Origin: Myxococcales bacterium
Lineage (GTDB): Bacteria > Myxococcota_A > Polyangia > Polyangiales > Polyangiaceae
Assembly: GCA_016720545.1 (NCBI GenBank)
Contig: JADKKK010000003.1
Coordinates: 473,516 to 537,515, forward strand
DNA: 64,000 bases
Direction of reading: 5' to 3'
The notes below the pieces were generated by a model that saw nothing but the letters and a program-made list of their open reading frames with translations, searched no databases and had not been told where the DNA came from. Position numbers and translations under genes: made by a program. This document shows, one piece after another, positions 49,571 through 62,434 of the stretch (position 1 is the first letter of the stretch; every line of letters begins with the position of its first letter).

Positions 49571-50773
49571 ATGGCGAGCCCGAGCCGAGGGCGAGGTGGC
49601 GCCGTGAACCTCGGCCTGCTCGCGTTCGCGCTCCGCGCCGTCGCGAGGCGCAGAGCTCGCGCCGTGGCCACCGGCGGTGGGCTCACGTTCGCCGTGGCCC
49701 TCGTGGCCGCCGTCCTCTTCCTCGCGGACGCGCTGCGCGCAGAGTCGACCGCGGCCCGCGACGCCCTGCCGGACGTGGTGGTCTCGCGCCTCGTAGGCGG
49801 CCGGCCGGCGGTCATCTCCATGCAGTCTGCACACAAACTCGCGCGCATCGACTCCGTGCGGCGTGTGAGGCCACGGGTATGGGGCTACGTGTTCGTGCCC
49901 GCCCTCCAGTCGAACGTGGTGGTCATGGGTGCGCCGCCGGACGCCCCCTCCCTCGAGGCGGTGGGGGGCGCGCTCGCCGCGGGGCGCGACCTGCGGCCCG
50001 GCGCCCACGAGATGGTCGCGGGCGCGCGGATCGCCAAGTTCCTCGGGCTCGAGGTGGGCGACCAAATGGTCCTGCCGTCGCCCAACCCCCTCGCGCCCTC
50101 GCTCCAGCTCGTGGGCACGTTCGACTCGCGGATCGATCTGTTCACCACCGACGTCGTGATGATGTCGAACGACGACGCGCGCGCGGTGCTCGGCATGGCC
50201 GAGGACCAGGCCACGGACCTCGCGCTCGACCTCGCGAACCCCGACGAGTCCCCCATCGTCGCGCGCACCGTGCTCGAGCGCATGCCGGACGCCCGGGTGA
50301 TCGACAAGAAGCTCCTCGTGCGCGCGCACACGCTCGCCTTCGGACGTCGCTCCGGGATCGTCCTCGCCGCCTCCGCGCCCGTGCTGCTCGTGCTCCTCGT
50401 GCTCGCGTGGGACCGCCTGAGCGGCTTCGGCGACGCCGAGCAGCGCGAGATCGCCGTGCTGAAGGCCGTGGGCTGGAGCACGAGCGAGGTGCTCTGGGCG
50501 AAGCTCTCCGAGTCGCTCCTCGTTGGCGCCTTCTCCACCGCTGCGGGCCTCGTGCTGGCGTACGTGTGGGTGTTCGTGGCGGGCGCGCCGCTCTTGCGTC
50601 CCGCCCTCGCGGGCTTCGGCGTGCTTTACCCGGAGGCGCCGCTCACCCCGCAGGTGGACGCGGCGCAGCTCTTGGCGGTCACGCTCGCCGTGCTCGGACC
50701 GTACGCCGCGCTCTCGATCGTTCCCGCGTGGCGCGCCGCCCAGATCGATCCGATGGACGCGATGCGAGGTTAG
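49571..50773 (+). CDS. ABC transporter permease, FtsX/MacB/LolE-type (4 TM with a large periplasmic loop). The start could instead be GTG 49604.
   Basis: N-terminal TM after an RRRAR motif, a ~200-aa periplasmic domain, and the C-terminal FtsX three-helix module (AVLKAVGWSTSEV…). Confidence 0.75.
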   Translation: MASPSRGRGGAVNLGLLAFALRAVARRRARAVATGGGLTFAVALVAAVLFLADALRAESTAARDALPDVVVSRLVGGRPAVISMQSAHKLARIDSVRRVRPRVWGYVFVPALQSNVVVMGAPPDAPSLEAVGGALAAGRDLRPGAHEMVAGARIAKFLGLEVGDQMVLPSPNPLAPSLQLVGTFDSRIDLFTTDVVMMSNDDARAVLGMAEDQATDLALDLANPDESPIVARTVLERMPDARVIDKKLLVRAHTLAFGRRSGIVLAASAPVLLVLLVLAWDRLSGFGDAEQREIAVLKAVGWSTSEVLWAKLSESLLVGAFSTAAGLVLAYVWVFVAGAPLLRPALAGFGVLYPEAPLTPQVDAAQLLAVTLAVLGPYAALSIVPAWRAAQIDPMDAMRG

Positions 50774-50835
50774 CGCGGACGTCGGGCGCGTCGGTCACCC
50801 TCGATGCTCACGTCGACTCATGCGAGCATGCCAGC

Positions 50836-51417
50836 ATGGAAGTCGACCGCGACGCCGCCGCGAGCCACATCGAAGGTTTCCTCCGCGCCATAGGCCGTGA
50901 TCCCGACGCCGATCCCGAGCTCGCCGAGACGGGCCGACGCGTGGCCGAGGCGTTCGTCGACGAACTGTGTGCAGGATACACTCTTTCGCCGCAGCTGCTC
51001 CTCCGCGAGAGCGCGATCGAGGGGACCGCGGAGCTCGTCGTCGTGCGCGACGTGCGGCTCGCCACCACCTGCCCCCACCACCTGATGCCCGCGATCGGCC
51101 ACGCTACGGTGGCGTTCGCGCCGGCCGGCCTGCTCGTGGGCGTCGGGACGATCGTGACCGTGCTCGAGGCGTGCGCGCGGCGCCTCGTGCTGCAGGAGGC
51201 GCTCGGCGAGGACGTGGTCGAGGCGCTCGACGCCGAGCTCCGGCCGCGCTGGGTAGGGTGCCGCCTGGTGCTGACCCACGGCTGCATGGTCGCCCGCGGC
51301 GAGCGCGCGCACGGCGCCGTCGTCGAGACCCTCGCCCTCCGTGGGTTCGCAGAGGGCGACGTGAGCGGGCGCCTCATGGCCCACCAAGTGCTCGGGCTCG
51401 GGCAGAGGGCCCTGTGA
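50836..51417 (+). CDS. folE: GTP cyclohydrolase I.
   Basis: Catalytic/zinc motif TTCPHHLMP and the family-typical sequence. 193 aa. Confidence 0.9.
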   Translation: MEVDRDAAASHIEGFLRAIGRDPDADPELAETGRRVAEAFVDELCAGYTLSPQLLLRESAIEGTAELVVVRDVRLATTCPHHLMPAIGHATVAFAPAGLLVGVGTIVTVLEACARRLVLQEALGEDVVEALDAELRPRWVGCRLVLTHGCMVARGERAHGAVVETLALRGFAEGDVSGRLMAHQVLGLGQRAL

Positions 51418-52112
51418 GCGCGCCGCGCGGCGTCGCGGTCGTGACAGGCGCGGGGAGCGGCATCGGCCGCGCGGTCGCGAAGGCCCTCTTCGCGCGAGGA
51501 CTCGACCTGGCGCTGCTCGGGCGCACCAAGGCCACGCTGGAAGCGACGGCGCGGGAGGTGCTCGACGGGGCGACCGCAGGGCGAGCGCTCGCGCTGCGGT
51601 GCGACGTCTCCGACCCGGCCGGGGTCGCCCACGCCTGCCGCAGGGCGGTCTCGGAGCTCGGCGTCCCGCGCGTGGTGGTGCACAGCGCAGGCGTCGTGGT
51701 GCGCGCACCGGTCGAGGCGACCACCGACGACGCGTGGCGCTCGGTGCTGGGCATCAACCTGGACGGGACGTTCCACGTCACGCGCGCGCTGCTGCCTGCG
51801 ATGCGCGAGCGCGGCGAGGGGCGCTTCGTGGCCATCGCGAGCATCTCGTCGACGCTCGGAACCCCCAAGCTCTCCGCCTACTGCGCCGCGAAATGGGGCG
51901 TCGTTGGCTTCATGAAGGCGCTCGCCGAGGAGCTCCGCGGCTCCGCGCTCGCCGCGATGTCGGTCCTGCCTGGCTCGGTCGACACGGCCATGCTCGACGG
52001 CAGCGGCTTCGCGCCAGCGATGCAGCCGGAAGACGTGGCCAACACGGTAGTGTACGCCGCGCTCGACGCGCCCCTCGCGATGAACGGGAGCGCGATCGAG
52101 ATCTTCGGCTGA
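51414..52112 (+). CDS. SDR-family oxidoreductase (pteridine/sepiapterin-reductase-like by context).
   Basis: GTG start overlapping the folE stop (GTGA). TGAGSGIG, NSAG-type and YCAAK motifs. Confidence 0.8.
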   Translation: MSAPRGVAVVTGAGSGIGRAVAKALFARGLDLALLGRTKATLEATAREVLDGATAGRALALRCDVSDPAGVAHACRRAVSELGVPRVVVHSAGVVVRAPVEATTDDAWRSVLGINLDGTFHVTRALLPAMRERGEGRFVAIASISSTLGTPKLSAYCAAKWGVVGFMKALAEELRGSALAAMSVLPGSVDTAMLDGSGFAPAMQPEDVANTVVYAALDAPLAMNGSAIEIFG

Positions 52113-52174: not shown

Positions 52175-52915
52175 CTAGCTGGTTCTCACGAGCCGGCGCA
52201 CCACGTCCGGGTGGTCGGTGGTGATGGCGTCGACCCCAGCCTCCAGCAGCCCGCGCACGATCGCCCGATCGGACGTGGTCCAAGGGGCGACCGCGAGCCC
52301 GGCGCCGTGCGCCGCTGCGACGCTCGCCTCGGTCACGAACGACCAGTGCGGGAGGAGCACGTCGGCCTTCGCGCGGCGCGCCATCTCCAGCTCGTCGACG
52401 GGACGGCACGCGTAGAGAATTCCCGTGAGAATACGCCTAGATAGGAGCTTGATTTGCCTCACCAGCGCGTGGTCGAAGCCGATCACCATCGCGCGGTCGA
52501 GCATGCCGAGGCTCGTGAGCAAGTCGACGACCGCGACGTCGATGCCCGGGGTGTCGACGGGGCAGTTCTTGAGCTCAATCTCGACCCCCACGCCCGCCCC
52601 GTCGGCCCACACGAGCGCCTGCTCGAGCGTGGGGACTCGCTCGCCGGCCCAGGCATCGCCGAACCAGCTCCCCGCGTCGAGCTGCGCGAGCTGCGCGCGC
52701 GTGCGCGACCGCACGGGCCCTCGACCCGACGTGGTGCGGGCGAGCGTGTCGTCGTGGATCACGACGGGCACTCCGTCGCGCGAGAGCTGCACGTCGAGCT
52801 CGATCCAGTCGGCCCCGAGCTTGGCGGCCCGGGCGAAGCTGCCGAGCGTGTTCTCGGGGCTCGTGCCCATCGCTCCCCGATGACCGACCACCGCGGGCCT
52901 GCCAGAGCGCCGCAC
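52175..52915 (-). CDS. Glycerophosphodiester phosphodiesterase family protein. The start is uncertain (GTG at 52915 chosen).
   Basis: VVGHRGAMGTSPENTLGSF (HR…ENT catalytic motif) and the rest of the GDPD fold. Upstream in-frame sequence is Arg-rich junk. Confidence 0.7.
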   Translation of the reverse strand: MRRSGRPAVVGHRGAMGTSPENTLGSFARAAKLGADWIELDVQLSRDGVPVVIHDDTLARTTSGRGPVRSRTRAQLAQLDAGSWFGDAWAGERVPTLEQALVWADGAGVGVEIELKNCPVDTPGIDVAVVDLLTSLGMLDRAMVIGFDHALVRQIKLLSRRILTGILYACRPVDELEMARRAKADVLLPHWSFVTEASVAAAHGAGLAVAPWTTSDRAIVRGLLEAGVDAITTDHPDVVRRLVRTS

Positions 52916-53451
52916 GCGGCCGACGGCGGTGTCGGGCTCAGCCTCGGCGTTCTCAGGGGCGCCTCTCGGCGCGCGCTTGGTCGACGAAGTCACTCCGCGT
53001 CCCGCTCGTGTTGCCATGCGCGGAGTAGAGCACGACGAGGCGCCCGCGCGCGCGTGAGCGCGCCGAGAAGTTGCCCCGCGCGGGCCGCGGGTGATTGGGT
53101 GCCGGCATGCGACACGCCGTCCACACCTCCTCGAGCGCGAGCGCCCACGCGACCGCTCCCGCGGCTCGGCCCCGCGAGCGCGGCCCCTCGCTCCGACACG
53201 CTCCCGTACGCCGCCACGACCCCCGCGAGGAGCCGCTCCCGCAGCCACTTCCCTTGCTTCGCGACGCGCTCGACGAGCTGGGTGACGCCGGGCTCCAGCG
53301 GTCCGCGCGCGCCCTCCACGTGATCGAGATCTACGAGCCCTGGTCGCGTATGCGTGACCTTCGACGCGAGCGCTGAACCAGCGCTCACGCTCTTCGAGCC
53401 GGCGTAACGCCGAACGCTCCAACGGCGCGCCGCGCCTGGTAGGCTCTCCCG

Positions 53452-54447
53452 ATGGGCACCTCGCGCGCGGCCACGGCCATGCTGACCGCCGGCCTCGTGG
53501 CGGCGCTGCTGGGCGTCTCGTGTGGCCGGTCGCTCCCGTCCTCACCGCACGCGCCGGGCGGCCCGCGGCCCGAGGCGGCGCACCTCGCGAACGAGGGCTG
53601 CACGACCTGCCACGAGGCCATCGGCCAGGAGTGGCGCGCGTCGAACCACGCCGAGGCGTTCCGACACGGCACCTTCCAGCTCGCCTACACCATCGAGCCG
53701 CTCGCTTTCTGCGCTCGGTGTCACGCGCCCGAGGCCGACGCGTCGCGACCGCTGCCGCCCGCGTCGGAGCTCGGCGTGGCGTGCGTCACCTGCCACCCGG
53801 GGGGACGACGCTGGCGGACCCCCACGCCCGCGGGGAGCACGCCGCTCGCTCGCGCCGACGCGGCCTGCGCTTCTTGCCACGAGTTCCCCTTCCCGAGCGA
53901 CGGCGCGGGGACTCCATCGCGCCTCATGCAGAAGACCATGAGCGAGCACGCGATCGCCTCGGCCAAGGGCACGCCGTGCGTCGGGTGCCACATGCCCTCG
54001 GTCGCAGAGCCTGGCGGCGGACGCCACGTGGATCACCGGTTTTTCGCCTCGCGCAGCGCCGAGCTCGTGCGGCGGGCCGCGCGGATCGAGGTGCGTCGTG
54101 AGGGCGCGGCGGCGGTCTTCACGTTCACCCGCGCAAGCGCCGGCCACGCGCTCCCGACCGGCGATATTTTCCGGAGACTGCGCCTCGTCGTGGAGTCGGA
54201 CTCGGCGAAGCGGACCACGTGGCTCGCGAGGAGGACCCGAGAGTCGGCCGCCGACGGGACCGAGCCCGACACGCGGCCTTTCGCCGATGGGCGCGACGTG
54301 TACGTGGCGGTCGTCCCGCTGCACGACCTACGCGGGGACCTCCGCTATCGGGTCGTCTACGAGCGCGTCGCGCACCCCAACGGCGAGGACGACGAGGGCG
54401 CGACGGTCGACGGGGCGATCGAGCTCACCCGCGGCGAGCTCCGCTAG
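53452..54447 (+). CDS. Penta-heme c-type cytochrome lipoprotein.
   Basis: Five CxxCH motifs (CTTCH, CARCH, CVTCH, CASCH, CVGCH). Signal peptide/lipobox LLGVSCG. Confidence 0.8.
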   Translation: MGTSRAATAMLTAGLVAALLGVSCGRSLPSSPHAPGGPRPEAAHLANEGCTTCHEAIGQEWRASNHAEAFRHGTFQLAYTIEPLAFCARCHAPEADASRPLPPASELGVACVTCHPGGRRWRTPTPAGSTPLARADAACASCHEFPFPSDGAGTPSRLMQKTMSEHAIASAKGTPCVGCHMPSVAEPGGGRHVDHRFFASRSAELVRRAARIEVRREGAAAVFTFTRASAGHALPTGDIFRRLRLVVESDSAKRTTWLARRTRESAADGTEPDTRPFADGRDVYVAVVPLHDLRGDLRYRVVYERVAHPNGEDDEGATVDGAIELTRGELR

Positions 54448-54532
54448 AGACGGCGGGGGGGTGGTCGCACCTTGCGCACCTTGCGCGCCTTGCGCGCCTT
54501 GCGCACCGACGGGGCGGGCGTAGCGTGGAGCC

Positions 54533-55207
54533 ATGCGCTCCCCGTCCGTGGTCGCCCGGATCTCCGTCACACGTTCGCGCGCGCGCTCGACCGCGCGAGC
54601 CTGGGCGATCACCGCGCTCGGCGCGCTCGCCGCAGCGCCGGCCATGGGCGCCTGCGCCCACCCCGATCCCATCACCGTCGAGCTGCCGCGACCGTCGGCG
54701 AGCGGTCCGCGCCCCGACCTCTTCCCGACCGCGTCCGTCGCCACGCCGGCGCCCGCTCCCACCGCGACCGAGCCCGCGAAGCCGACGCCCTTCCCTCTCA
54801 CCCAGCTCCAGACCAACGCGCCCGCGCTCGGCGGCCCATGCGGCGCGAGCACGCGCGCGTTCTGCGGGACCAGCGGCCGCGTGGCGGTGACCGCGCACCA
54901 GTTTCAGTTCCGCGGGCCGGAGCAGCCCGCGTGCCAGCCCGTCAGCCTGGGCCGCCCGGACGTCGCCGCCCCCCACGTGACCTCGGCCTGCGTCGAGGGC
55001 GACCACCTCTTCGTCACCACGAGCTGCATCATCTGTCGCTCGCCCTCGGGCACCTCCATCGAGGGGCTCGTCTCGGACATGACCCCAGGCCAGCTCGCCT
55101 TCGTCCAGAAGCAAGCCGGCCTCGACGGGCCGCCCCTGCTCAGCGCGCAGGAGTGGGACCTGGCGATTCGCTCGGCGCACTCCAACTCACTGAAAGAGAA
55201 GCACTAA
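54533..55207 (+). CDS. Secreted hypothetical protein with 8 Cys, 224 aa.
   Basis: Signal peptide WAITALGALAAAPAMGAC. Coding GC3. Confidence 0.5.
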   Translation: MRSPSVVARISVTRSRARSTARAWAITALGALAAAPAMGACAHPDPITVELPRPSASGPRPDLFPTASVATPAPAPTATEPAKPTPFPLTQLQTNAPALGGPCGASTRAFCGTSGRVAVTAHQFQFRGPEQPACQPVSLGRPDVAAPHVTSACVEGDHLFVTTSCIICRSPSGTSIEGLVSDMTPGQLAFVQKQAGLDGPPLLSAQEWDLAIRSAHSNSLKEKH

Positions 55208-55292
55208 CCGGCGCGCGGGCTCGACCTGGCCGACCGCCACGATGGCGCGACCGCTCGCGTCGTTCGTGGCGCAACGGTAAAGTCGAGATCCT

Positions 55293-55943
55293 TTGGACGC
55301 CCCGCCCGACCTCATCGCCGCGCTCCCCTGCCTGCCGCTCTTCCCTCTCCCCGAGGTCGTGTTGCTCCCGGGGGCGCGCCTGCCCCTGCACGTGTTCGAG
55401 CCGCGCTACCGCGTGATGCTCGAGCGGTGCATGGCCACCCACCGCGCGCTCGCCGTCGTGCAGCTGCTGCGCGGGACCGACGCGCAGGGCCTCCCGCGCC
55501 TCGCGAGACTCGCTGGCGGCGGCATCATCACCGAGCACCACGCGCTGGCGGACGGGCGGGCGAACATCCTCGTCGAGGGCTTGGCGCGCCTCGAGCTCGA
55601 GGAGCTCGCGTTCGAGCCACCCTACCGGCGCGCGCGCGCGACCGTGCTGCACGACGCGCCGGGCCAGCTCGCGGAGCCCGACCGCAGGGCCCTCCTCAGC
55701 GCCGCGACCACCTTCGCGCGCCTCGTGCGCGGCCACGATCGATCGTTCTCGTTCCACGTCGACCCAGCCGAGCCGCGCCTCGTCGAGCTCTGCGCGTTTC
55801 AGCTCGTCGTCGACGCCGAGCTCCGCCAGTCCCTCCTGGAGGAGCCGAGCTTGGCTGTGCGCGCTCAGAAGGTCACGGAGGCGCTGATGGTTCAAGCGGC
55901 CACGCTCGGGCAGCAGAGCGGCGCGGGGCGCGATGTCAACTGA
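55293..55943 (+). CDS. Stand-alone Lon protease N-terminal (substrate-binding, LON/PUA-like) domain protein.
   Basis: LPLFPLPEVVLLPGARLPLHVFEPRYRVML is the canonical start of the LON N-domain. No AAA+ or protease domain follows. TTG start. Confidence 0.7.
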   Translation: MDAPPDLIAALPCLPLFPLPEVVLLPGARLPLHVFEPRYRVMLERCMATHRALAVVQLLRGTDAQGLPRLARLAGGGIITEHHALADGRANILVEGLARLELEELAFEPPYRRARATVLHDAPGQLAEPDRRALLSAATTFARLVRGHDRSFSFHVDPAEPRLVELCAFQLVVDAELRQSLLEEPSLAVRAQKVTEALMVQAATLGQQSGAGRDVN

Positions 55944-56301
55944 AGGCCGCGCGCCAAAGCTCGTCGGGACGCTCACGCTCGAAGCCCTCGAAGGCCAGGC
56001 GCACGTGCGAATGCCCTACCCGCCCTTCGACGTGCTCGTCGCGATGGTGGAGGGCGTGCCGCGCGCGATCGAAGACGCGTGCAACCACGCCGGCGCCAGC
56101 TTGAGCCCGGGCCCCCGCACGAAGGACGGGCGGTGTGTCGTGTGTCCGGTGCACGGGTACGTCTTCCAGCTCGTCGACGGGAAGCTGCGCAGCCCTCGTG
56201 GGCTGTGCGGCGACCAGCGCACCTTCGAGGTGCGGAGAGAGCCCGACGGCACCCTCTCGGTCTGGGACACCTTCGACCTCACGGTGAGCGCCGCGCCTTG
56301 A
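55933..56301 (+). CDS. Rieske [2Fe-2S] domain protein, 122 aa.
   Basis: CNHAG…(17 aa)…CPVHG = CxH…CxxH Rieske ligands. Overlaps the upstream gene by 11 nt. Confidence 0.7.
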   Translation: MSTEGRAPKLVGTLTLEALEGQAHVRMPYPPFDVLVAMVEGVPRAIEDACNHAGASLSPGPRTKDGRCVVCPVHGYVFQLVDGKLRSPRGLCGDQRTFEVRREPDGTLSVWDTFDLTVSAAP

Positions 56302-56371
56302 CCGCGGACCGCCCGCGGAGGCGCGCCGCCGCCTGGCGCGCGAGGGCGCTGAGGCGCTAACCTTCGGCGCC

Positions 56372-57148
56372 ATGGCACCGTTCTTCATCTTCGGCGGCAT
56401 CCTGCTCCTCGTGGGCGTGATCATCACGGCCGCCAACCTCAAGAACTTCCGGCGCCGTCAGCGCATCCTGCAGACGCCGACCTCGCCGATCGCGCAGGCC
56501 CCGGGCGCCGGCCCCGTCGAGGTGAAGGGTCGCATCGTGCCGGGCGAGCAAGGCGTACTTCAGACGCCCTTCAGCGGTCGGCACGCGGTGTGGTGCCGCA
56601 TCACCGTGCTCGAGCACCGCTCCTCGGGCCGCAACAGCTATTGGGCCACCATCATCAAGGAGACCGACCAGCGCGAGTTCTTCGTGGACGACGGCTCGGG
56701 TCAGATGGCGAAGATCGTGCCCCACGGGGCCGAGGTCATCCTCGACGCGCAGAACGTCGCGAGCTCCGGCACGTTCAACGACGCGTCGCCGCACCTTCAG
56801 GGCTTCCTCGCCTCGCGCGGCCACTCCACCCAGACGTTCCTCGGCTTCAACAAGTCGATGCGCTACACGGAAGAGGTCCTCTCGCCGAACGATCCTCTGT
56901 ACGCGCTCGGACCTTCACGCCGCGAGGCCGGCCCGCCGGTGAACGACGGCTACCGCATGGCGCCCTCGAGCCAGCTCGTATTGGGCGCCGGTCACGGCGA
57001 GGCGCACGAGCTCATCCTCACCAACAAAACCGAGGAGCAGCTCGTGTCGCGGCTGCTCTGGGGGTTCGTGGGTGGCCTCATTTGCGTGGGCGTCTCGCTG
57101 GTGTGCGGCGCAATAGGTCTTATCTTTGCGATCGCCGAAATGATCTAG
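56372..57148 (+). CDS. GIDE-domain-like membrane protein with N- and C-terminal TM helices flanking a soluble domain.
   Basis: N-terminal TM FFIFGGILLLVGVIITAANL and C-terminal TM LLWGFVGGLICVGVSLVCGAIGLIFAIAEMI. Assignment to GIDE is by architecture and recalled family, not verified. Confidence 0.55.
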   Translation: MAPFFIFGGILLLVGVIITAANLKNFRRRQRILQTPTSPIAQAPGAGPVEVKGRIVPGEQGVLQTPFSGRHAVWCRITVLEHRSSGRNSYWATIIKETDQREFFVDDGSGQMAKIVPHGAEVILDAQNVASSGTFNDASPHLQGFLASRGHSTQTFLGFNKSMRYTEEVLSPNDPLYALGPSRREAGPPVNDGYRMAPSSQLVLGAGHGEAHELILTNKTEEQLVSRLLWGFVGGLICVGVSLVCGAIGLIFAIAEMI

Positions 57149-57161
57149 CCGAGGGCGACCG

Positions 57162-58175
57162 CTAGAAGCGACCGAGCAGCGCGCCGCCCGCGCCGCCGGG
57201 GCCCACGACAGGCACGAGGCTGACGCGATCTCGCTCGCGCGGGTTCGGCGTAGCCCACGGGCGCAGCACGAGCGCCGACACCACCGCGGCGCCCAAGAAC
57301 ACGCCGCCGCCAACGTAGCCAACGATCGACCCCGTGCCGAGGCCCGACGCCTTCGACGCGGCGTCCTCGAGGGGCTGGCAGCCGGGCGCCCCGGGCCGAG
57401 GGCAGGGCGCGCCGACGCTGAGGAGCCGGAGCTCGTCGTCCGAGCTGGCCGACATCGCGCCCATCACCGCGCCCGCCCCGAGGCCGGCGACGCCGACCAC
57501 GCCGAGCACCACGGGCACCGTCCACGAAGCCCCGGCTTCGCGCTCCGCGGGAGGCGGCGATGGCGGCGGCGGCGACGTGTCGCCCTCGAGCGCGACCACC
57601 ACCGTGCGCTCGGCGGGGCACGCCACGGGGCGCTTTCGCCGGCGCTGGCCGAAGGTCACGACGACCTCGTGCGGTCCGGCGAGCACCGCGATGGGGTCGG
57701 CGAGCGGGGCCTCGCCCGCGACGACGCCGTCGACGCGCACCTGGGTCCCGCGCGGCGTGCCCGGCGCGAGAGTGATGAGGCTCACCTTCGTGCCGAGGTC
57801 CGCGAAGAGCTTCTTGGCGAGCGTGGTGTGCGCGGGATCGGTCTGCGGCAGCTTCAGGAGCTCGCGAAAGTGGTGGTACGCGCCGAGCACGTGGCCTACG
57901 CGGTGCTCGGCGCGCGCGAGGTTGAACAGCACGTCGGGCTCCTTCAGGACCGCCCACGCCTGCGCGTACTTGAGCCTCGCCTGCTCGTGCTCGCCGCGCC
58001 CCCAGAGCGCGTGGCCCTCGTCGAACCGCTGCTTGGCCTCTGCGCTGAACGCATCCTCGGCGCGGGCCTCGGCGCCGCCCGCCGCCAAGGTGACGAGCCC
58101 CACGGTCAGCCCGAGCGCCGCCCGGACAAGCCACGTGCGCGCTCGCGTCCTCGCTTGCGCTTCACGCTCGCTCAC
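57162..58175 (-). CDS. TPR-like / PEGA-domain membrane protein, paralog A (337 aa).
   Basis: Signal peptide, a TPR-like helical region, a PEGA-like beta domain (TQVRVDGVVAGEAPL…LAGPHEVVV), a poly-Pro linker and C-terminal TM segments. GTG start in a GTGA overlap with the upstream beta-helix gene. Paralogous to 62453..63490. Confidence 0.7.
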   Translation of the reverse strand: MSEREAQARTRARTWLVRAALGLTVGLVTLAAGGAEARAEDAFSAEAKQRFDEGHALWGRGEHEQARLKYAQAWAVLKEPDVLFNLARAEHRVGHVLGAYHHFRELLKLPQTDPAHTTLAKKLFADLGTKVSLITLAPGTPRGTQVRVDGVVAGEAPLADPIAVLAGPHEVVVTFGQRRRKRPVACPAERTVVVALEGDTSPPPPSPPPAEREAGASWTVPVVLGVVGVAGLGAGAVMGAMSASSDDELRLLSVGAPCPRPGAPGCQPLEDAASKASGLGTGSIVGYVGGGVFLGAAVVSALVLRPWATPNPRERDRVSLVPVVGPGGAGGALLGRF

Positions 58176-59470
58176 GGCGCCACCTCCAGCTCGGACTGCG
58201 ACAGCCCCGCGGGGCCGTCATTCACTCCCGCCGCTCCGCCTACGCCTCCCGCTCCCCCGGCTCCTGCCTTCAGCGTCCCGTCTCCCGTGGGCTTCGTTCC
58301 CTTGTAGACTACAGCTACCGAGATCCCGCCCGCTCCGCCAGCTCCCGCTCCGCCCGCTCCGCCCTTCCCGCCGTCTCCCCCGCCGCAGCCCGGGGCAGCC
58401 ACCTCGGCCGCCCCAGGTCCGCCCCCGCCCCCGGTACCCCCGGTACCCCCGGTACCCCCGGCAGCGGCCGTGAGCGTCACGTTCGTCATCGTCACGTTCG
58501 AGCTCACGCTCAGCAGCGCGATGCTCCCGCCTCCGCTCTTGCCCCCCTTCCCTCCCGTACCCCCGCATCCCCCGCAGGCGCCTCCGCCTCCAAAGCTGTC
58601 CGCTCCGCGTGAGCCTCCGCCCCCGCCACCTTGACCGGGCAGTCCGCTCGCTCCCGCGGGCGCCTCCGACGGCGTCCACTCCCCGCTCCCGGATATCCCT
58701 CCCGGCGTCGTCACCTTCGCAGCTGGCGCTCCCTCGGCTCGCTCTGCTCCGGTGTTCCCCGAGCCGTTCGGCTCCGCAGCTACGCAGCTCGCTAGGGCGA
58801 CTCCACCCGCTCCGTCGGTCGGCGCGACCCCGCCCAGCGCCTCGGCTCCGCTCCCAGCCGTGATCCAATGGGGCGCCGCCGCCCCCCCTCCGGATCCGCC
58901 TCCCGAGCTGCACGTGCACGGCTTCGCCGCTCCCCCGCGCTCGCGCTCGCCGGGTTCCGTTCCCGTTCCCCGTCGCGTACGTCCCCGTCGTCCCGCCCGC
59001 TCCAGCCTCCCCAGCGAATCCACCCTTCGCCTCCACTCCCACCTTCCGTAGGCTCACCTTCACCGCCTCCACAGCCCACACTCCCACGCTCGTACGCGAC
59101 CCCGCCGTCCCCGCCGCTCCTTCGATGTCCAGCTCCGCCAGCGTCGCCGTCACCTTCCCTATCTTCACCGCGTACTCTGGCTTCGTCCCCACCACCTTCG
59201 CTCGCCCTCCAGCCTTCCCGAAGTCGCACGTCACTCCCGAGTACACCTCCACGTCGCTCTTCACCTCCACGCTCTCCGCGTACGTCCCCTCGCACACCAC
59301 CACCCGCCCGCGACCCGCAGAGAGCCCCTTCCCCACCGTCTTGTAGGGCTTCGTCCTCGTCCCCGCGTTCCCGTCGTCCCCACTCGGCGACACGTACACT
59401 CCGTAGCTGTCCACTAGGCACTTCCTCAGGGTTCTTCACTGGCTCGTTCGGCGTCTCGCACCCGCCCCCG
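58172..59470 (-). pseudogene. Beta-helix (DUF1565-like) / Gly-rich repeat protein, tandem copy 1. N-terminally truncated (no signal peptide or start) and frameshifted.
   Basis: The unit begins mid-domain (…GCETPNEPVKNPEE, with an extra G against the other copies) directly after the stop of copy 2. The N-part frame 58218..59414 shifts at about 58950 into the C-part frame 58172..59023 (…GGTGGTGG…SELEVAP*). Confidence 0.55.
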
Positions 59471-59473
59471 GCC

Positions 59474-60954
59474 TCACGGCGCCACCTCCAGCTCGGACTG
59501 CGACAGCCCCGCGGGGCCGTCATTCACTCCCGCCGCTCCGCCTACGCCTCCCGCTCCCCCGGCTCCTGCCTTCAGCGTCCCGTCTCCCGTCGGCTTCGTT
59601 CCCTTGTACACTACAGCTACCGAGATCCCGCCCGCTCCGCCCGCTCCCGCTCCGCCCGCTCCGCCCTTCCCGCCGTCTCCCCCGCCGCAGCCGGAGAGCG
59701 AGCCACCTCCAGCCGCCCCGGGTCCGCCCCCGCCCCCGGTACCCCCGGTACCCCCGGTACCCCCGGTACCCCCGGTACCCCCGGCAGCGGCCGTGAGCGT
59801 CACGTTCGTCATCGTCACGTTCGAGCTCACGCTCAGCAGCGCGATGCTCCCGCCTCCGCTCTTGCCCCCCTTCCCTCCCGTACCCCCGCATCCCCCGCAG
59901 GCGCCTCCGCCTCCAAAGCTGTCCGCTCCGCGTGAGCCTCCGCCCCCGCCACCTTGACCGGGCAGTCCGCTCGCTCCCGCGGGCGCCTCCGACGGCGTCC
60001 ACTCCCCGCTCCCGGATATCCCTCCCGGCGTCGTCACCTTCGCAGCTGGCGCTCCCTCGGCTCGGTCTGCTCCGGTGTTCCCCGAGCCGTTCGGCTCCGC
60101 AGCTACGCAGCTCGCTAGTGCGACTCCACCCGCTCCGTCGGTCGGCGCCACTCCGCCCAGCGCCTCGAGCCCGCTCCCAGCCGTATCCAATGGAGCGCCG
60201 CCTCGGGCCCCAGCGGTCACGCCTCCCGAGCTGCACGTGCACGGCTTCGCCGCTCCCCCCGCGCTCGCGCTCGCCGGGTTCCCGTTCCCGTTCCCCGTCG
60301 CGTACGTCCCCGTCGTCCCGCCCGCTCCAGCCTCCCCAGCGAATCCACCCTTCGCCTCCACTCCCACCTTCCGTAGGCTCACCTTCACCGCCTCCACAGC
60401 CCACACTCCCACGCTCGTACGCGACCCCGCCGTCCCCGCCGCTCCTTCGATGTCCAGCTCCGCCAGCGTCGCCGTCACCTTCCCCACTCTCACCGCGTAC
60501 TCTGGCTTCGTCCCCACCACCTTCGCTCGCCCTCCAGCCTTCCCGACGTCGCTCGTCACCCCCGAGTACACCTCCACGTCGCTCTTCACCTCCACGCTCT
60601 CCGCGTACGTCCCTCGCACACCACCACCCGCCCGCGACCCGCAGAGAGCCCCTTCCCCACCGTCTTGTAGGGCTTCGTCCTCGTCCCGGGGTTCCCGTCG
60701 TCCCCACTCGGCGACACGTACACTCCGTAGCTGTCCACTAGGCACTTCTCAGGGTTCTTCACTGGCTCGTTCGGCGTCTCGCACCCGGGCGGAACCACCA
60801 CGTCCACTCCCCCGTCCACCGACCCCTCCCCGACCCCGCCCTCTCCCACCCCTCCGTCCGAAGCCTCCGTCACGTAATAGTTGTTCGTCGTGCACCCCGA
60901 CCCCGAAACCAGGCCCGCCAGCACGAACGCGCACAGCGCCACCCCCGGCCTCAC
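59474..60954 (-). CDS. Secreted beta-helix (DUF1565-like) lipoprotein with a C-terminal Gly-rich repeat region, tandem copy 2. Apparent -1 frameshift at a C-run near 60615.
   Basis: GTG start in a GTGA overlap with the copy-3 stop. Signal peptide/lipobox MRPGVALCAFVLAGLVSGSGC. The N-domain YVSPSGDDGNPGTRTKPYKTVGKGLSAGRGRVVVCEG then continues in another frame (TYAESVEVK…). CCC here corresponds to CCCC in copies 1 and 3. Confidence 0.6.
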
Positions 60955-62434
60955 GGCGCCACCTCCAGCTCGGACTGCGACAGCCCCGCGGGGCCGTCAT
61001 TCACTCCCGCCGCTCCTCCCACGCCTCCCGCTCCCCCCGCTCCCGCCTTCAGCGTCGCGTCTCCCGTCGGCTTCGTTCCCTTGTAGACTACAGCTACCGA
61101 GATCCCGCCCGCTCCGCCCGCTCCCGCTCCGCCCGCTCCGCCCTTCCCGCCGTCTCCCCCGCCGCAGCCCGGCGTTCCGCCACCGGCCACCCCACCAAGT
61201 CCGCCCCCGCCCCCGGTACCCCCGGTACCCCCGGTACCCCCCGGTCCCCCCGGCAGCGGCCGTGAGCGTCACGTTCGTCATCGTCACGTGCGAGCTCACG
61301 CTCAGCAGCGCGATGCTCCCGCCTCCGCCCTTGCCCCCCTTCCCTCCCGTACCCCCGCATCCCCCGCAGCCGCCTCCGCCTCCAAAGCTGTCCGCCCCGC
61401 GTGACCCACCGCCGCCACCCCCTTGACCGGGCAGTCCGCTCGCTCCCGCGGCCGCCTCCGACGGCGTCCCCTCCCGCTCCCGGATATCCCTCCCGGCGTC
61501 GTCACCTTCGCAGCTGGCGCTCCTCGGCTCGGTCTGCTCCGGTGTTCCCCGAGCCGTTCGGCTCCGCAGCTACGCAGCTCGCTAGTGCGACTCCACCCGC
61601 TCCGTCGGTCGGCGCCACTCCGCCGAGCGCCTCGGCTCCGCTCCCAGCCGTGATCAACGGGGCGCCGCCGCCCCCTCCTCCGGATCCGCCTCCCGAGCTG
61701 CACGTGCACGGCTTCGCCGCTCCCCCCGCGCTCGCGCTCGCCGGGTTCCCGTTCCCGTTCCCCGTCGCGTACGTCCCTGTCGTCCCGCCCGCTCCAGCCT
61801 CCCCACCGAATCCACCCTTCGCCTCCACTCCCACCTTCCGAAGGCTCACCTTCACCGCCTCCACAGCCCACACTCCCACGCTCGTACGCGACCCCGCCGT
61901 CCCCGCCGCTCCTTCGATGTCCAGCTCCGCCAGCGTCGCCGTCACCTTCCCCACCTTCACCGCGTACTCGGGCTTCGTCCCCACCACCTTCGCTCGCCCT
62001 CCAGCCTTCCCGAAGTCGCACGTCACTCCCGAGTACACCTCCACGTCGCTCTTCACCTCCACGCTCTCCGCGTACGTCCCCTCGCACACCACCACCCGCC
62101 CGCGACCCGCAGAGAGCCCCTTCCCCACCGTCTTGTAGGGCTTCGTCCTCGTCCCGGGGTTCCCGTCGTCCCCACTCGGCGACACGTACACTCCGTAGCT
62201 GTCCACTAGGCACTTCTCAGGGTTCTTCACTGGCTCGTTCGGCGTCTCGCACCCGGGCGGAACCACCACGTCCACTCCCCCGTCCACCGACCCCTCCCCG
62301 ACCCCGCCCTCTCCCACCCCTCCGTCCGACTCGGCGTCGCACGTTCCGTTGTCGCAGAGCGACGGAATCGAAAAACACCCCGCGAACACGAGCGCGGTGG
62401 TCGTCGCGAGCCCAAGTGCAATGATCTTCTTCAT
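60951..62434 (-). CDS. Secreted beta-helix (DUF1565-like) lipoprotein with a Gly-rich repeat C-terminus, tandem copy 3. At least two single-base deletions in C-runs near 61440-61520 break the frame.
   Basis: Start MKKIIALGLATTTALVFAGC (lipobox) at 62434 with an intact N-domain. The frame is lost after …NTGADRAE (stop at 61502). The C-terminal Gly-rich part and …SELEVAP* (ending 60951) are in other frames. The corresponding copy-2 DNA has one more C at each site. Confidence 0.6.

What the first reader, a model, noticed from the sequence alone, without database searches (positions are those of the whole stretch)
53452..57148. Putative operon of penta-heme cytochrome c lipoprotein, secreted Cys protein, orphan Lon N-domain protein, Rieske protein and GIDE-like membrane protein
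Five co-directional genes with 71-86-nt spacers, and one 11-nt overlap between the Lon N-domain and Rieske genes. Periplasmic multiheme cytochrome and Rieske electron carriers are combined with a stand-alone Lon substrate-recognition domain (no ATPase or protease) and a two-TM membrane protein of a family linked to E3-ligase-like GIDE proteins. The mix of redox carriers and proteolysis-adaptor-like proteins is not a described system that I recognise. It could represent a redox-sensing or quality-control module for the envelope.
Basis: partly seen in the sequence, partly recalled or inferred. Interest (0 to 1): 0.6.

Follow-up and report, generated by a model that had tools for sequence, protein, structure and literature searches.

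The report
Three unrelated gene units, not one operon
The five same-strand genes are real and their domain labels hold, but related genomes show they are three independently inherited units placed side by side (one gene by a recent inversion), so this is an ordinary gene neighbourhood and not a new redox/proteolysis system.

Summary
All five ORFs are real genes (GC3 0.88-0.94). The domain calls hold: a five-CxxCH cytochrome lipoprotein, a Cys-rich lipoprotein, a stand-alone Lon N-domain (LonN), a Rieske protein and a two-TM GIDE protein. The spacers are 85, 85, -11 and 70 nt.

The five-gene system is not conserved.
1. The cytochrome and the Cys-rich lipoprotein form their own head-to-head pair. 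The pair persists down to 35-43% identity, where no LonN/Rieske follows. In every sister lineage the cytochrome lies on the opposite strand. Only this species carries a ~1.05-kb inversion (53423-54455), seen in three independent assemblies, that makes it co-directional.
2. LonN-Rieske is a tightly coupled pair (-11 to +13 nt in 18 of 20 loci). In most Polyangia it sits directly behind folE-SDR, without cytochrome, Cys protein or GIDE. One lineage has deleted LonN.
3. GIDE orthologues (41-81% identity) lie elsewhere in 68 metagenome loci, none with Rieske or LonN.

The Rieske protein and LonN have no signal peptide, so they cannot contact the periplasmic cytochrome. The GIDE protein has no RING domain.

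Verdict: a lineage-specific juxtaposition of low interest. The LonN-Rieske and cytochrome/Cys-lipoprotein pairs are modest uncharacterised leads.

The parts
53423..54455 (.). Segment inverted in this species relative to all sister lineages. It carries the cytochrome gene plus about 29 nt of its upstream region.
   Evidence: blastn aligns window 53423-54455 to L081 4855-3811 in reverse at 83% identity, while both flanks are collinear. The window's orientation is also found in two independent assemblies of the same species, L089 and L096. No inverted repeats lie at the junctions.
53452..54447 (+). Pentaheme c-type cytochrome, a predicted lipoprotein of 331 aa. It is unit 1 together with the Cys-rich lipoprotein.
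   Evidence: Five CxxCH motifs, conserved in homologues down to 41% identity. Pfam Cytochrome_C7 E=8.7e-10 and C554 E=4.8e-6. Best solved relative is 5ze8 cytochrome c552, E=2e-7 over a partial alignment. Lipobox LLGVSC.
54466..54507 (.). 9-nt tandem repeat (CGCACCTTG) at the right inversion junction, 26-67 nt upstream of the Cys-protein start.
   Evidence: TRF reports 4.7 copies. Read by eye from the printed sequences, L089 has about 1.7 copies and L096 about 5.7; these are near-identical assemblies of the same species.
54533..55207 (+). Cys-rich lipoprotein of 224 aa, from an uncharacterised family. It is the partner of the cytochrome, and the pair is ancestrally head-to-head.
   Evidence: No Pfam, NCBIfam or PADLOC match. 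A profile search found 148 representatives at E<=1e-3. Among 112 full-length members the lipobox Cys is conserved in 99%, the six domain Cys in 88-99%, and a CxxC is present in 109 of 112. The divergent cytochrome partner is present in L081-87, L090-95, L167 and L170.
55293..55943 (+). Stand-alone Lon N-terminal (substrate-binding) domain protein of 216 aa, cytoplasmic. It is unit 2 together with the Rieske protein.
   Evidence: PF02190 E=4.3e-27, covering profile positions 2-198 of 200. No AAA+ or S16 protease part: NCBIfam Lon equivalog scores are 21 and 12 bits against cut-offs of 891 and 608. PDB relatives are Lon N-domains and BPP1347, 1zbo.
55933..56301 (+). Small Rieske [2Fe-2S] ferredoxin-type protein of 122 aa, cytoplasmic. 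It overlaps the LonN stop codon by 11 nt.
   Evidence: PF00355 E=4.2e-9. The CxH...CPxH ligands are invariant in 14 of 14 aligned homologues. The nearest solved relatives are dioxygenase ferredoxins CarAc, BphF and TodB. The LonN-stop to Rieske-start distance is -11 to +13 nt in 18 of 20 loci.
56372..57148 (+). Two-TM GIDE-domain membrane protein of 258 aa. It is unit 3, a conserved Polyangia gene that is a neighbour only in this narrow clade.
   Evidence: PF12483 E=1.1e-8. TM helices at residues 3-34 and 221-257 in the AF2 model, mean pLDDT 69. Orthologues are 62-83% identical across many Polyangiaceae and Labilithrix MAGs. None of 68 metagenome loci has Rieske or LonN nearby.
50836..52112 (+). 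folE (50836-51417) and an SDR gene (51417-52112). These are the ancestral upstream neighbours of LonN-Rieske.
   Evidence: Pfam GTP_cyclohydroI E=9e-39 and adh_short E=7e-47. The order folE-SDR-LonN-Rieske is contiguous in L001, L003, L004, L006, L007, L008, L013, L015 and L088.
52175..52945 (-). Glycerophosphodiester phosphodiesterase gene on the opposite strand. Together with the cytochrome/Cys pair it splits the ancestral SDR-LonN junction.
   Evidence: Pfam GDPD E=1e-48. It is present only in the narrow clade: L081-83, L089-95 and L165.

Best explanation
The 3.7-kb stretch is a lineage-specific juxtaposition of three independently inherited units. It is not one system.

Unit 1 is periplasmic. 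It consists of a Sec-exported pentaheme c-type cytochrome lipoprotein and a Sec-exported lipoprotein of about 200 aa with six conserved cysteines, including a CxxC. The two genes are ancestrally arranged head-to-head around a short shared intergenic region. This species alone has a ~1.05-kb inversion that flipped the cytochrome gene, which creates the appearance of a five-gene operon. Inferred mechanism: the cytochrome exchanges electrons with a thiol/disulfide or metal centre in its lipoprotein partner at the outer face of the inner membrane.

Unit 2 is cytoplasmic. It consists of a stand-alone Lon N-domain protein translationally coupled to a 120-aa Rieske [2Fe-2S] ferredoxin-type protein. 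In most Polyangia this pair sits at the tail of a folE-SDR (pterin-type) gene string. Inferred mechanism: the two proteins are made in fixed ratio and act together, with the Rieske cluster as the redox-active part and LonN as the protein-binding part. No protease or ATPase is encoded with them.

Unit 3 is a highly conserved Polyangia membrane protein with two TM helices flanking a GIDE-family beta-rich domain. The positive-inside rule (KNFRRRQR after TM1) suggests the domain faces the cytoplasm. It is a neighbour only in the window's genus-level clade and has no RING/E3 part.

What is shown: gene content, domain identity, the inversion, and the independent distribution of the three units. What is inferred: cellular compartments (from signal sequences) and all biochemical roles.
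For: - The genes are real and the domain calls pass curated cut-offs.
- Inversion. Window 53423-54455 aligns in reverse to L081 with collinear flanks. The cytochrome is on the minus strand relative to Cys-LonN-Rieske in L081-83, L084-85, L086, L087, L090-92 and L093-95. It is on the plus strand only in the window, L089 and L096, which are the same species at 98-100% identity.
- The cytochrome/Cys pair stands alone. L167 and L170 (Cys protein 35% identical, cytochrome 41-43% identical, five CxxCH) are head-to-head. They are followed by TfoX_N/Uma2 in L167 and by a reverse-strand gene in L170, not by LonN/Rieske.
- LonN-Rieske stands alone. L001, L003, L004, L006, L007, L008, L013, L015 and L088 have folE-SDR-LonN-Rieske with no cytochrome, Cys protein or GIDE within 10 kb. 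The junction is -11 to +13 nt in 18 of 20 loci. LonN is cleanly absent in L093-95, while Cys-Rieske-GIDE remain.
- GIDE is independent. Of 68 metagenome loci with orthologues at 41-81% identity, 42 have at least 500 nt of upstream sequence, and none has a Rieske or LonN hit. In MAG GCA_035902735.1 the GIDE gene sits on the ftsX-folE-SDR-GDPD backbone (L165), while cyt-Cys-LonN-Rieske is on another contig (L084). In Labilithrix its neighbours are unrelated genes.
- Compartments. The cytochrome and Cys protein have lipoboxes. LonN and Rieske have no signal peptide.
- No PADLOC defence-family match for any of the five proteins.
Against: - In this species the five genes are co-directional, with gaps of 85 nt or less and no predicted terminator on the + strand. 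They may therefore well be co-transcribed here.
- The four-gene block (cyt, Cys, LonN, Rieske) stays together in at least three different flanking contexts (the window clade and L086, L084, L087). GIDE follows Rieske in two moderately diverged lineages, L081-83 and L093-95. Some functional linkage within this clade is therefore not excluded.
- All relatives are MAGs or metagenome contigs, so binning errors could affect the L084/L165 argument.
- No biochemical role was demonstrated for any unit.
Confidence: 0.72

Rival explanations
1. A four-gene module (cytochrome, Cys-rich lipoprotein, LonN, Rieske) is a functional unit in this Polyangia subclade. The periplasmic redox pair would be linked in regulation or function to the cytoplasmic LonN-Rieske pair, and GIDE would be incidental.
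For: The four genes are adjacent in the window clade, L081-83, L084-85, L086, L087 and L090-92. The outer flanks differ: folE-SDR/GDPD, a 435-aa gene with an Asp protease gene, and GFO_IDH with LysR. In the ancestral layout, Cys-LonN-Rieske are co-directional behind the promoter region shared with the cytochrome.
Against: - The cytochrome/Cys pair exists without LonN/Rieske.
- LonN-Rieske exists without the cytochrome/Cys pair in 10 loci.
- LonN was lost in L093-95.
- The products are in different compartments, and no membrane-spanning component is shared.
- Only two or three rearrangement events underlie the 'different contexts', so the adjacency could be plain synteny.
Confidence: 0.15
2. 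One reading: all five genes form one operon encoding a new envelope redox-sensing or quality-control module that couples electron carriers to a Lon-adaptor-like protein and an E3-like GIDE protein.
For: Co-directional genes with short gaps and one overlap in this species and in two other assemblies of it. No + strand terminator was predicted.
Against: - The cytochrome is on the opposite strand in all sister lineages.
- GIDE lies elsewhere in 68 loci.
- LonN is dispensable in L093-95.
- The GIDE protein ends 3 residues after TM2 and has no RING domain.
- The Rieske protein is cytoplasmic.
- No Lon protease or ATPase is encoded in the cluster.
Confidence: 0.05
3. The cytochrome segment is an actively invertible (phase-variable) DNA switch, or the orientation in the window is an assembly artefact.
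For: A clean inversion confined to one gene. A variable-number 9-nt repeat lies at one junction.
Against: - Three independent assemblies of the species all show the same orientation.
- No inverted repeats at the junctions.
- None of the gene products scanned around the cluster matched a recombinase family.
- The junction sequences have diverged, which indicates an old, fixed event.
Confidence: 0.03

Closest known systems
Stand-alone Lon N-terminal domain proteins (Pfam PF02190 only; e.g. Bordetella parapertussis BPP1347, PDB 1zbo) and the N-domain of Lon protease
   Same: There is a full-length match to the LON_substr_bdg profile, positions 2-198 of 200, at E=4e-27. PDB relatives are isolated Lon N-domains and BPP1347. 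The size is about 210 aa.
   Different: It has no AAA+ ATPase and no S16 protease domain. In Polyangia it is translationally coupled to a Rieske protein. That pairing was absent from about 60 loci of other phyla, apart from one Eisenbacteria locus with the reversed order. From my own knowledge, no function is established for the stand-alone family; two literature searches found nothing relevant.
Rieske-type ferredoxins of aromatic ring-hydroxylating dioxygenases (CarAc 1vck, BphF 1fqt, TodB 3dqy; HcaC) and NirD-like small Rieske proteins
   Same: It is a soluble protein of about 110-120 aa with the CxH...CxxH ligand set and no signal peptide.
   Different: All NCBIfam scores are far below the equivalog cut-offs, 28 bits against 150. 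No oxygenase, reductase or NirB partner gene is nearby. The conserved neighbour is a Lon N-domain gene instead.
MUL1/GIDE/MAPL family (Pfam PF12483)
   Same: It has the TM-domain-TM layout, and the match to the GIDE profile is above the gathering score.
Small multiheme c-type cytochromes (cytochrome c7/c554/NrfB-like; pentaheme cytochrome c552, PDB 5ze8)
   Same: It has five CxxCH motifs and is Sec/lipoprotein exported. Pfam C7 and C554 matches pass their cut-offs. There is a partial match to 5ze8 at E=2e-7.
   Different: It has no CxxCK catalytic haem as in NrfA. NrfB, DmsE and MtrC NCBIfam scores are far below cut-off. It has a conserved non-haem C-terminal domain of about 140 aa with a GHA[LF]PTGD[ILV]FRRLR motif. 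Its conserved partner is an uncharacterised Cys-rich lipoprotein, not a reductase.

Membership tests
Lon protease (endopeptidase La, TIGR00763 / PRK10787) | N-terminal substrate-binding domain (PF02190) | tested here: met
   95.8 bits against a cut-off of 28.7, E=4.3e-27.
Lon protease (endopeptidase La, TIGR00763 / PRK10787) | AAA+ ATPase module and S16 Ser-Lys protease domain in the same polypeptide | tested here: not met
   The protein is 216 aa in total. NCBIfam Lon equivalog scores are 21.2 and 11.8 bits against cut-offs of 891 and 608, and the matches fall in the N-terminal region only. It is not a Lon protease.
Rieske [2Fe-2S] proteins (PF00355) | Profile match plus CxH and CxxH cluster ligands | tested here: met
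   36.6 bits against 20.3. C50-N-H52 and C73-P-V-H76 are invariant in 14 of 14 aligned homologues.
Periplasmic/membrane Rieske subunits (bc1/b6f or arsenite-oxidase type) | Tat signal or N-terminal membrane anchor | tested here: not met
   No hydrophobic segment was found. Only 15 in-frame codons lie upstream of the ATG. The nearest relatives are soluble dioxygenase ferredoxins.
GIDE/MUL1 family (PF12483) | GIDE-domain profile match flanked by two TM helices | tested here: met
   35.2 bits against 23.6. TM helices at residues 3-34 and 221-257.
GIDE/MUL1 family as E3 ubiquitin ligases | C-terminal RING finger that provides the ligase activity | tested here: not met
   The protein ends at residue 258, within 3 residues of TM2. 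No RING or other Pfam match was found.
Multihaem c-type cytochromes | Multiple CxxCH haem-attachment motifs and export to the periplasm | tested here: met
   Five CxxCH motifs, conserved in homologues at 41-85% identity. Lipobox signal peptide. Pfam C7 38.7 bits against 24.8. Haem attachment itself cannot be tested in silico.
NrfA/NrfB nitrite-reductase system | CxxCK active-site haem (NrfA), or equivalog-level match to NrfB | tested here: not met
   All five motifs are CxxCH. NrfB NF008659 scores 17.5 bits against a cut-off of 184.
Single operon / conserved gene cluster | Same strand with short gaps in this genome | tested here: met
   Gaps of 85, 85, -11 and 70 nt. No + strand terminator-like site.
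Single operon / conserved gene cluster | Order and orientation conserved in related genomes | tested here: not met
   The cytochrome is antisense in all sister lineages. GIDE lies elsewhere in 68 loci. LonN is lost in L093-95. LonN-Rieske occurs alone in 10 loci.
Single operon / conserved gene cluster | One transcript spanning all genes | not testable with these tools
   No expression data are available. The sigma-70 consensus scan found no promoter-like site anywhere in the region, which is uninformative for Myxococcota.
Known anti-phage defence systems (PADLOC) | Match of any component to a defence-protein model | tested here: not met
   No match at E<=0.01 for any of the five proteins.

The most novel reading that the evidence does not exclude
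The conserved, translationally coupled LonN-Rieske pair could be a new kind of cytoplasmic redox-gated protein-binding module. The redox state of the Rieske [2Fe-2S] cluster would control what the orphan Lon N-domain binds, for example delivery of substrates to Lon or sequestration of a pterin-pathway enzyme. In this subclade the pair may also be regulated together with the periplasmic cytochrome/Cys-lipoprotein pair. Nothing found here excludes this. The only support is conserved adjacency within Polyangia plus a single reversed-order occurrence in an Eisenbacteria MAG.
Probability: 0.1. Interest if true: 0.55.

Novelty: new member of a known kind. Interest (0 to 1): 0.2.

Why it matters
The main value is negative. 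An attractive 'redox plus proteolysis-adaptor' operon turns out to be ordinary gene neighbours brought into line by a recent single-gene inversion. This shows that co-directionality in one genome should not be read as a system.

Two small leads remain for anyone working on Myxococcota or on orphan domains:
- A stand-alone Lon N-domain protein consistently coupled to a small Rieske ferredoxin. The stand-alone LonN family is large (more than 3,000 hits) and, to my knowledge, has no assigned function.
- An uncharacterised family of Cys-rich lipoproteins, about 150 representative clusters with no Pfam model, always found head-to-head with a pentaheme cytochrome in the cases examined.

Tried and rejected
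- AlphaFold2 on the Cys-rich lipoprotein with a 6-sequence alignment gave mean pLDDT 42.5, which is unusable, so no fold search was run on it.
- Literature searches for stand-alone Lon N-domain proteins, COG2802, BPP1347 and bacterial GIDE/PF12483 returned nothing relevant. The one paper that mentions PF12483 only used it as a search model.
- The search for 5ZE8 / pentaheme cytochrome c552 papers was uninformative.
- The promoter/terminator consensus scan found no promoter-like site and only one terminator-like site, on the minus strand. It is uninformative for this phylum.
- Inverted repeats that could mark a site-specific invertible element were looked for and not found at the junctions; only GC-rich chance matches appeared elsewhere.
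- A census of the genes downstream of LonN in 40 non-Polyangia loci showed heterogeneous neighbours (an ABC ATPase in Nitrospira, TPR proteins and others) and no common partner. It gives no general functional clue for LonN.
- The large repeat proteins that hit the Cys-family profile (P0248, P0287, P0372) are repeat or low-complexity matches and were discarded.
- My first tblastn used wrong frames for folE and SDR. This was corrected.

Full report
**Origin and observation.** The window is 72% GC. Its Lon N-domain (LonN) protein is 100% identical to a protein of a Myxococcales MAG carried on an 814-kb contig. All show the strong third-position GC bias of real genes in this genome, 0.88-0.94. The gaps are 85, 85, -11 and 70 nt.

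The profile searches confirm the labels with scores above Pfam's curated cut-offs:
- Cytochrome_C7 and C554, with five CxxCH motifs in the protein.
- LON_substr_bdg, E=4e-27, full length.
- Rieske, E=4e-9.
- GIDE, E=1e-8.

The second protein matches no Pfam, NCBIfam or PADLOC family. One correction is needed: the Rieske protein has no signal or Tat sequence and no room for one, so it is cytoplasmic, not periplasmic.

**Comparative test using LonN.** I aligned 30 LonN homologues and fetched 80 loci from species-representative genomes with 10-kb flanks. tblastn with correctly framed window proteins, a Rieske HMM and a ligand-motif scan gave a consistent picture. In Polyangiaceae and Labilithrix MAGs (L001, L003, L004, L006, L007, L008, L013, L015) the order is CysS(-), a 203-aa gene(-), ftsX, folE, SDR, LonN, Rieske. 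SDR and LonN are only 24-86 nt apart, and there is no cytochrome, Cys protein or GIDE within 10 kb. L088 has the same order, and L010, L012, L032 and L041 keep SDR-LonN. LonN-Rieske behind folE-SDR is therefore the ancestral arrangement.

The distance from the LonN stop to the Rieske start is -11, -4, +2, +4, +7, +9, +10 or +13 nt in 18 of 20 loci. This indicates conserved translational coupling. The CxH/CPxH ligands are invariant in all 14 aligned Rieske homologues.

Outside this clade, about 60 LonN loci (Nitrospira, Thermoanaerobaculia, Rokubacteria and others) have no adjacent Rieske gene. The exceptions are one Eisenbacteria MAG (L020), where a small Rieske gene sits immediately upstream of LonN, and a partial Rieske ORF about 1.2 kb away in L039. 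Downstream neighbours of LonN in 40 such loci are heterogeneous.

**The cytochrome is inverted in this species.** Gene-call tables for closer relatives show the cytochrome on the opposite strand to Cys-LonN-Rieske in every sister lineage:
- L081-83, LonN 83% identical.
- L084-85, 61%.
- L086, 58%.
- L087, 61%, where the gene caller fused the region into a spurious 595-aa ORF; tblastn resolves it.
- L090-92 and L093-95.

blastn shows the cause. Window 53423-54455 aligns to L081 4855-3811 in reverse, and both flanks are collinear. The same derived orientation is found in two independent assemblies of the same species: L089 from another NCBI MAG and L096 from a JGI metagenome. It is therefore real and fixed, not an assembly error. 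No inverted repeats lie at the junctions. The appearance of five co-directional genes is thus the product of a recent single-gene inversion.

**The cytochrome/Cys pair is its own unit.** The word-indexed search found only five clusters for the Cys protein. An exhaustive profile search found 148 representatives. Among 112 full-length members the lipobox Cys and the six domain Cys are 88-99% conserved, and a CxxC is present in 109. Two distant members were looked up (35% identity). Both are again head-to-head with a pentaheme cytochrome orthologue (41-43% identity, five CxxCH). One is followed by TfoX_N and Uma2 genes and the other by a reverse-strand gene, not by LonN/Rieske. The cytochrome also carries a conserved lipobox and a conserved non-haem C-terminal domain. 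Its best solved relative is the cytochrome c552 of 5ze8, over a partial alignment.

**GIDE is a backbone gene.** The 258-aa protein is very well conserved, 62-83% identical across many Polyangiaceae and Labilithrix MAGs. That is far more conserved than LonN at comparable taxonomic distance. A metagenome scan returned 69 loci. Only L096, which is the same species, has any of the other four genes. Of the 68 others, 42 have at least 500 nt of upstream sequence, and none has a Rieske or LonN HMM hit. In MAG GCA_035902735.1 the GIDE gene follows ftsX-folE-SDR-GDPD-DUF2202 on one contig (L165), while cyt-Cys-LonN-Rieske lies on another (L084). In Labilithrix its neighbours are unrelated genes. GIDE follows Rieske only in the window's narrow clade: the window, L089, L096, L081-83 and L093-95. 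In L093-95 LonN itself has been deleted, leaving Cys-Rieske-GIDE.

The protein has TM helices at both ends and ends 3 residues after TM2, so it has no RING domain. Its 'E3 ligase' label is only the Pfam family name. The fold search gave only helical-hairpin matches.

**Interpretation.** The stretch decomposes into three units:
1. A periplasmic pentaheme cytochrome lipoprotein plus Cys-rich lipoprotein pair.
2. A cytoplasmic LonN plus Rieske pair, historically attached to a folE-SDR string. In L086 and L088 a radical-SAM gene lies upstream of folE (directly adjacent in L088), which hints at pterin metabolism.
3. A conserved two-TM GIDE-domain protein.

The units occur independently of one another, their products face different compartments, and no Lon protease or ATPase is encoded with them. 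None matches a known defence family.

I put 0.72 on this mosaic reading, 0.15 on a clade-specific four-gene functional block, 0.05 on the original five-gene module, and 0.03 on an active switch or artefact. Co-transcription in this particular species after the inversion remains possible and untested.

**Novelty and interest.** Each gene is a new member of a known domain family or of an uncharacterised but ordinary family. The five-gene 'system' is not a conserved entity. The residual leads are the LonN-Rieske coupling and the cytochrome/Cys-lipoprotein pair, both undescribed as far as my searches show. They are modest. Interest 0.2.

Noticed in passing
window 54466-54507: A 9-nt tandem repeat (CGCACCTTG) lies in the cytochrome-Cys intergenic region, 26-67 nt upstream of the Cys-protein start and at the right inversion junction. 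The window has 4.7 copies (TRF). Read by eye, L089 has about 1.7 and L096 about 5.7; these are near-identical assemblies of the same species. It could alter promoter spacing.
   Followed up: partly
window 53107-53376 (+): An 89-aa ORF lies between the GDPD gene and the cytochrome. Its product is 94% identical to the L081 counterpart, while the DNA is only about 83% identical, which suggests a real small protein-coding gene. It has no Pfam match, and it is absent in L093-95.
   Followed up: partly
window 58171-62330 (-): Three tandem copies (period 1.30-1.48 kb; most blocks 84-100% identical) of a Gly-rich gene with a weak DUF1565-like N-terminus. They cause a strong GC skew of -0.35 to -0.39. 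The first copy reads as two overlapping ORFs (58172-59023 and 58218-59414), suggesting a frameshift or pseudogene.
   Followed up: partly
L093-L095 (e.g. L093 7071-9063): A sister lineage has cleanly lost the LonN gene. The Cys-protein gene is followed after about 100 nt by the Rieske gene and then GIDE. The Rieske gene therefore persists without its usual partner.
   Followed up: yes
L020 9468-10681 (Candidatus Eisenbacteria MAG): A small Rieske gene (CPHMG...CPWHG) lies immediately upstream of, and abuts, a stand-alone LonN gene. This is the reverse of the Polyangia order, and it is the only clearly independent LonN-Rieske adjacency seen outside Polyangia.
   Followed up: partly
L086 1620-6349 and L088 4772-7941; window 50836-52112: folE (GTP cyclohydrolase I) and the SDR gene that precede LonN-Rieske have a radical-SAM gene upstream in these relatives (directly adjacent in L088, two genes away in L086). 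The domains are PF19864 Radical_SAM_N2 in L086 and PF23545 Zn_ribbon_HMPTM in L088. This suggests a pterin-modification gene string.
   Followed up: no
L088 10063-16666: A type III CRISPR Cmr cluster (Cmr2-Cmr5, RAMPs) with SAVED and SMODS genes lies a few kb downstream of LonN-Rieske in one relative. It is unrelated to the finding.
   Followed up: no
window 49879-51417, 50967-52112, 52175-53545; L087 1133-2920: In this 72% GC DNA, mechanical ORF lists and even gene callers produce long spurious or over-extended ORFs. One example is the 595-aa call in L087, which fuses the antisense strand of the cytochrome gene with the Cys-protein gene. True starts had to be set by GC3 profile and homology.
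   Followed up: yes
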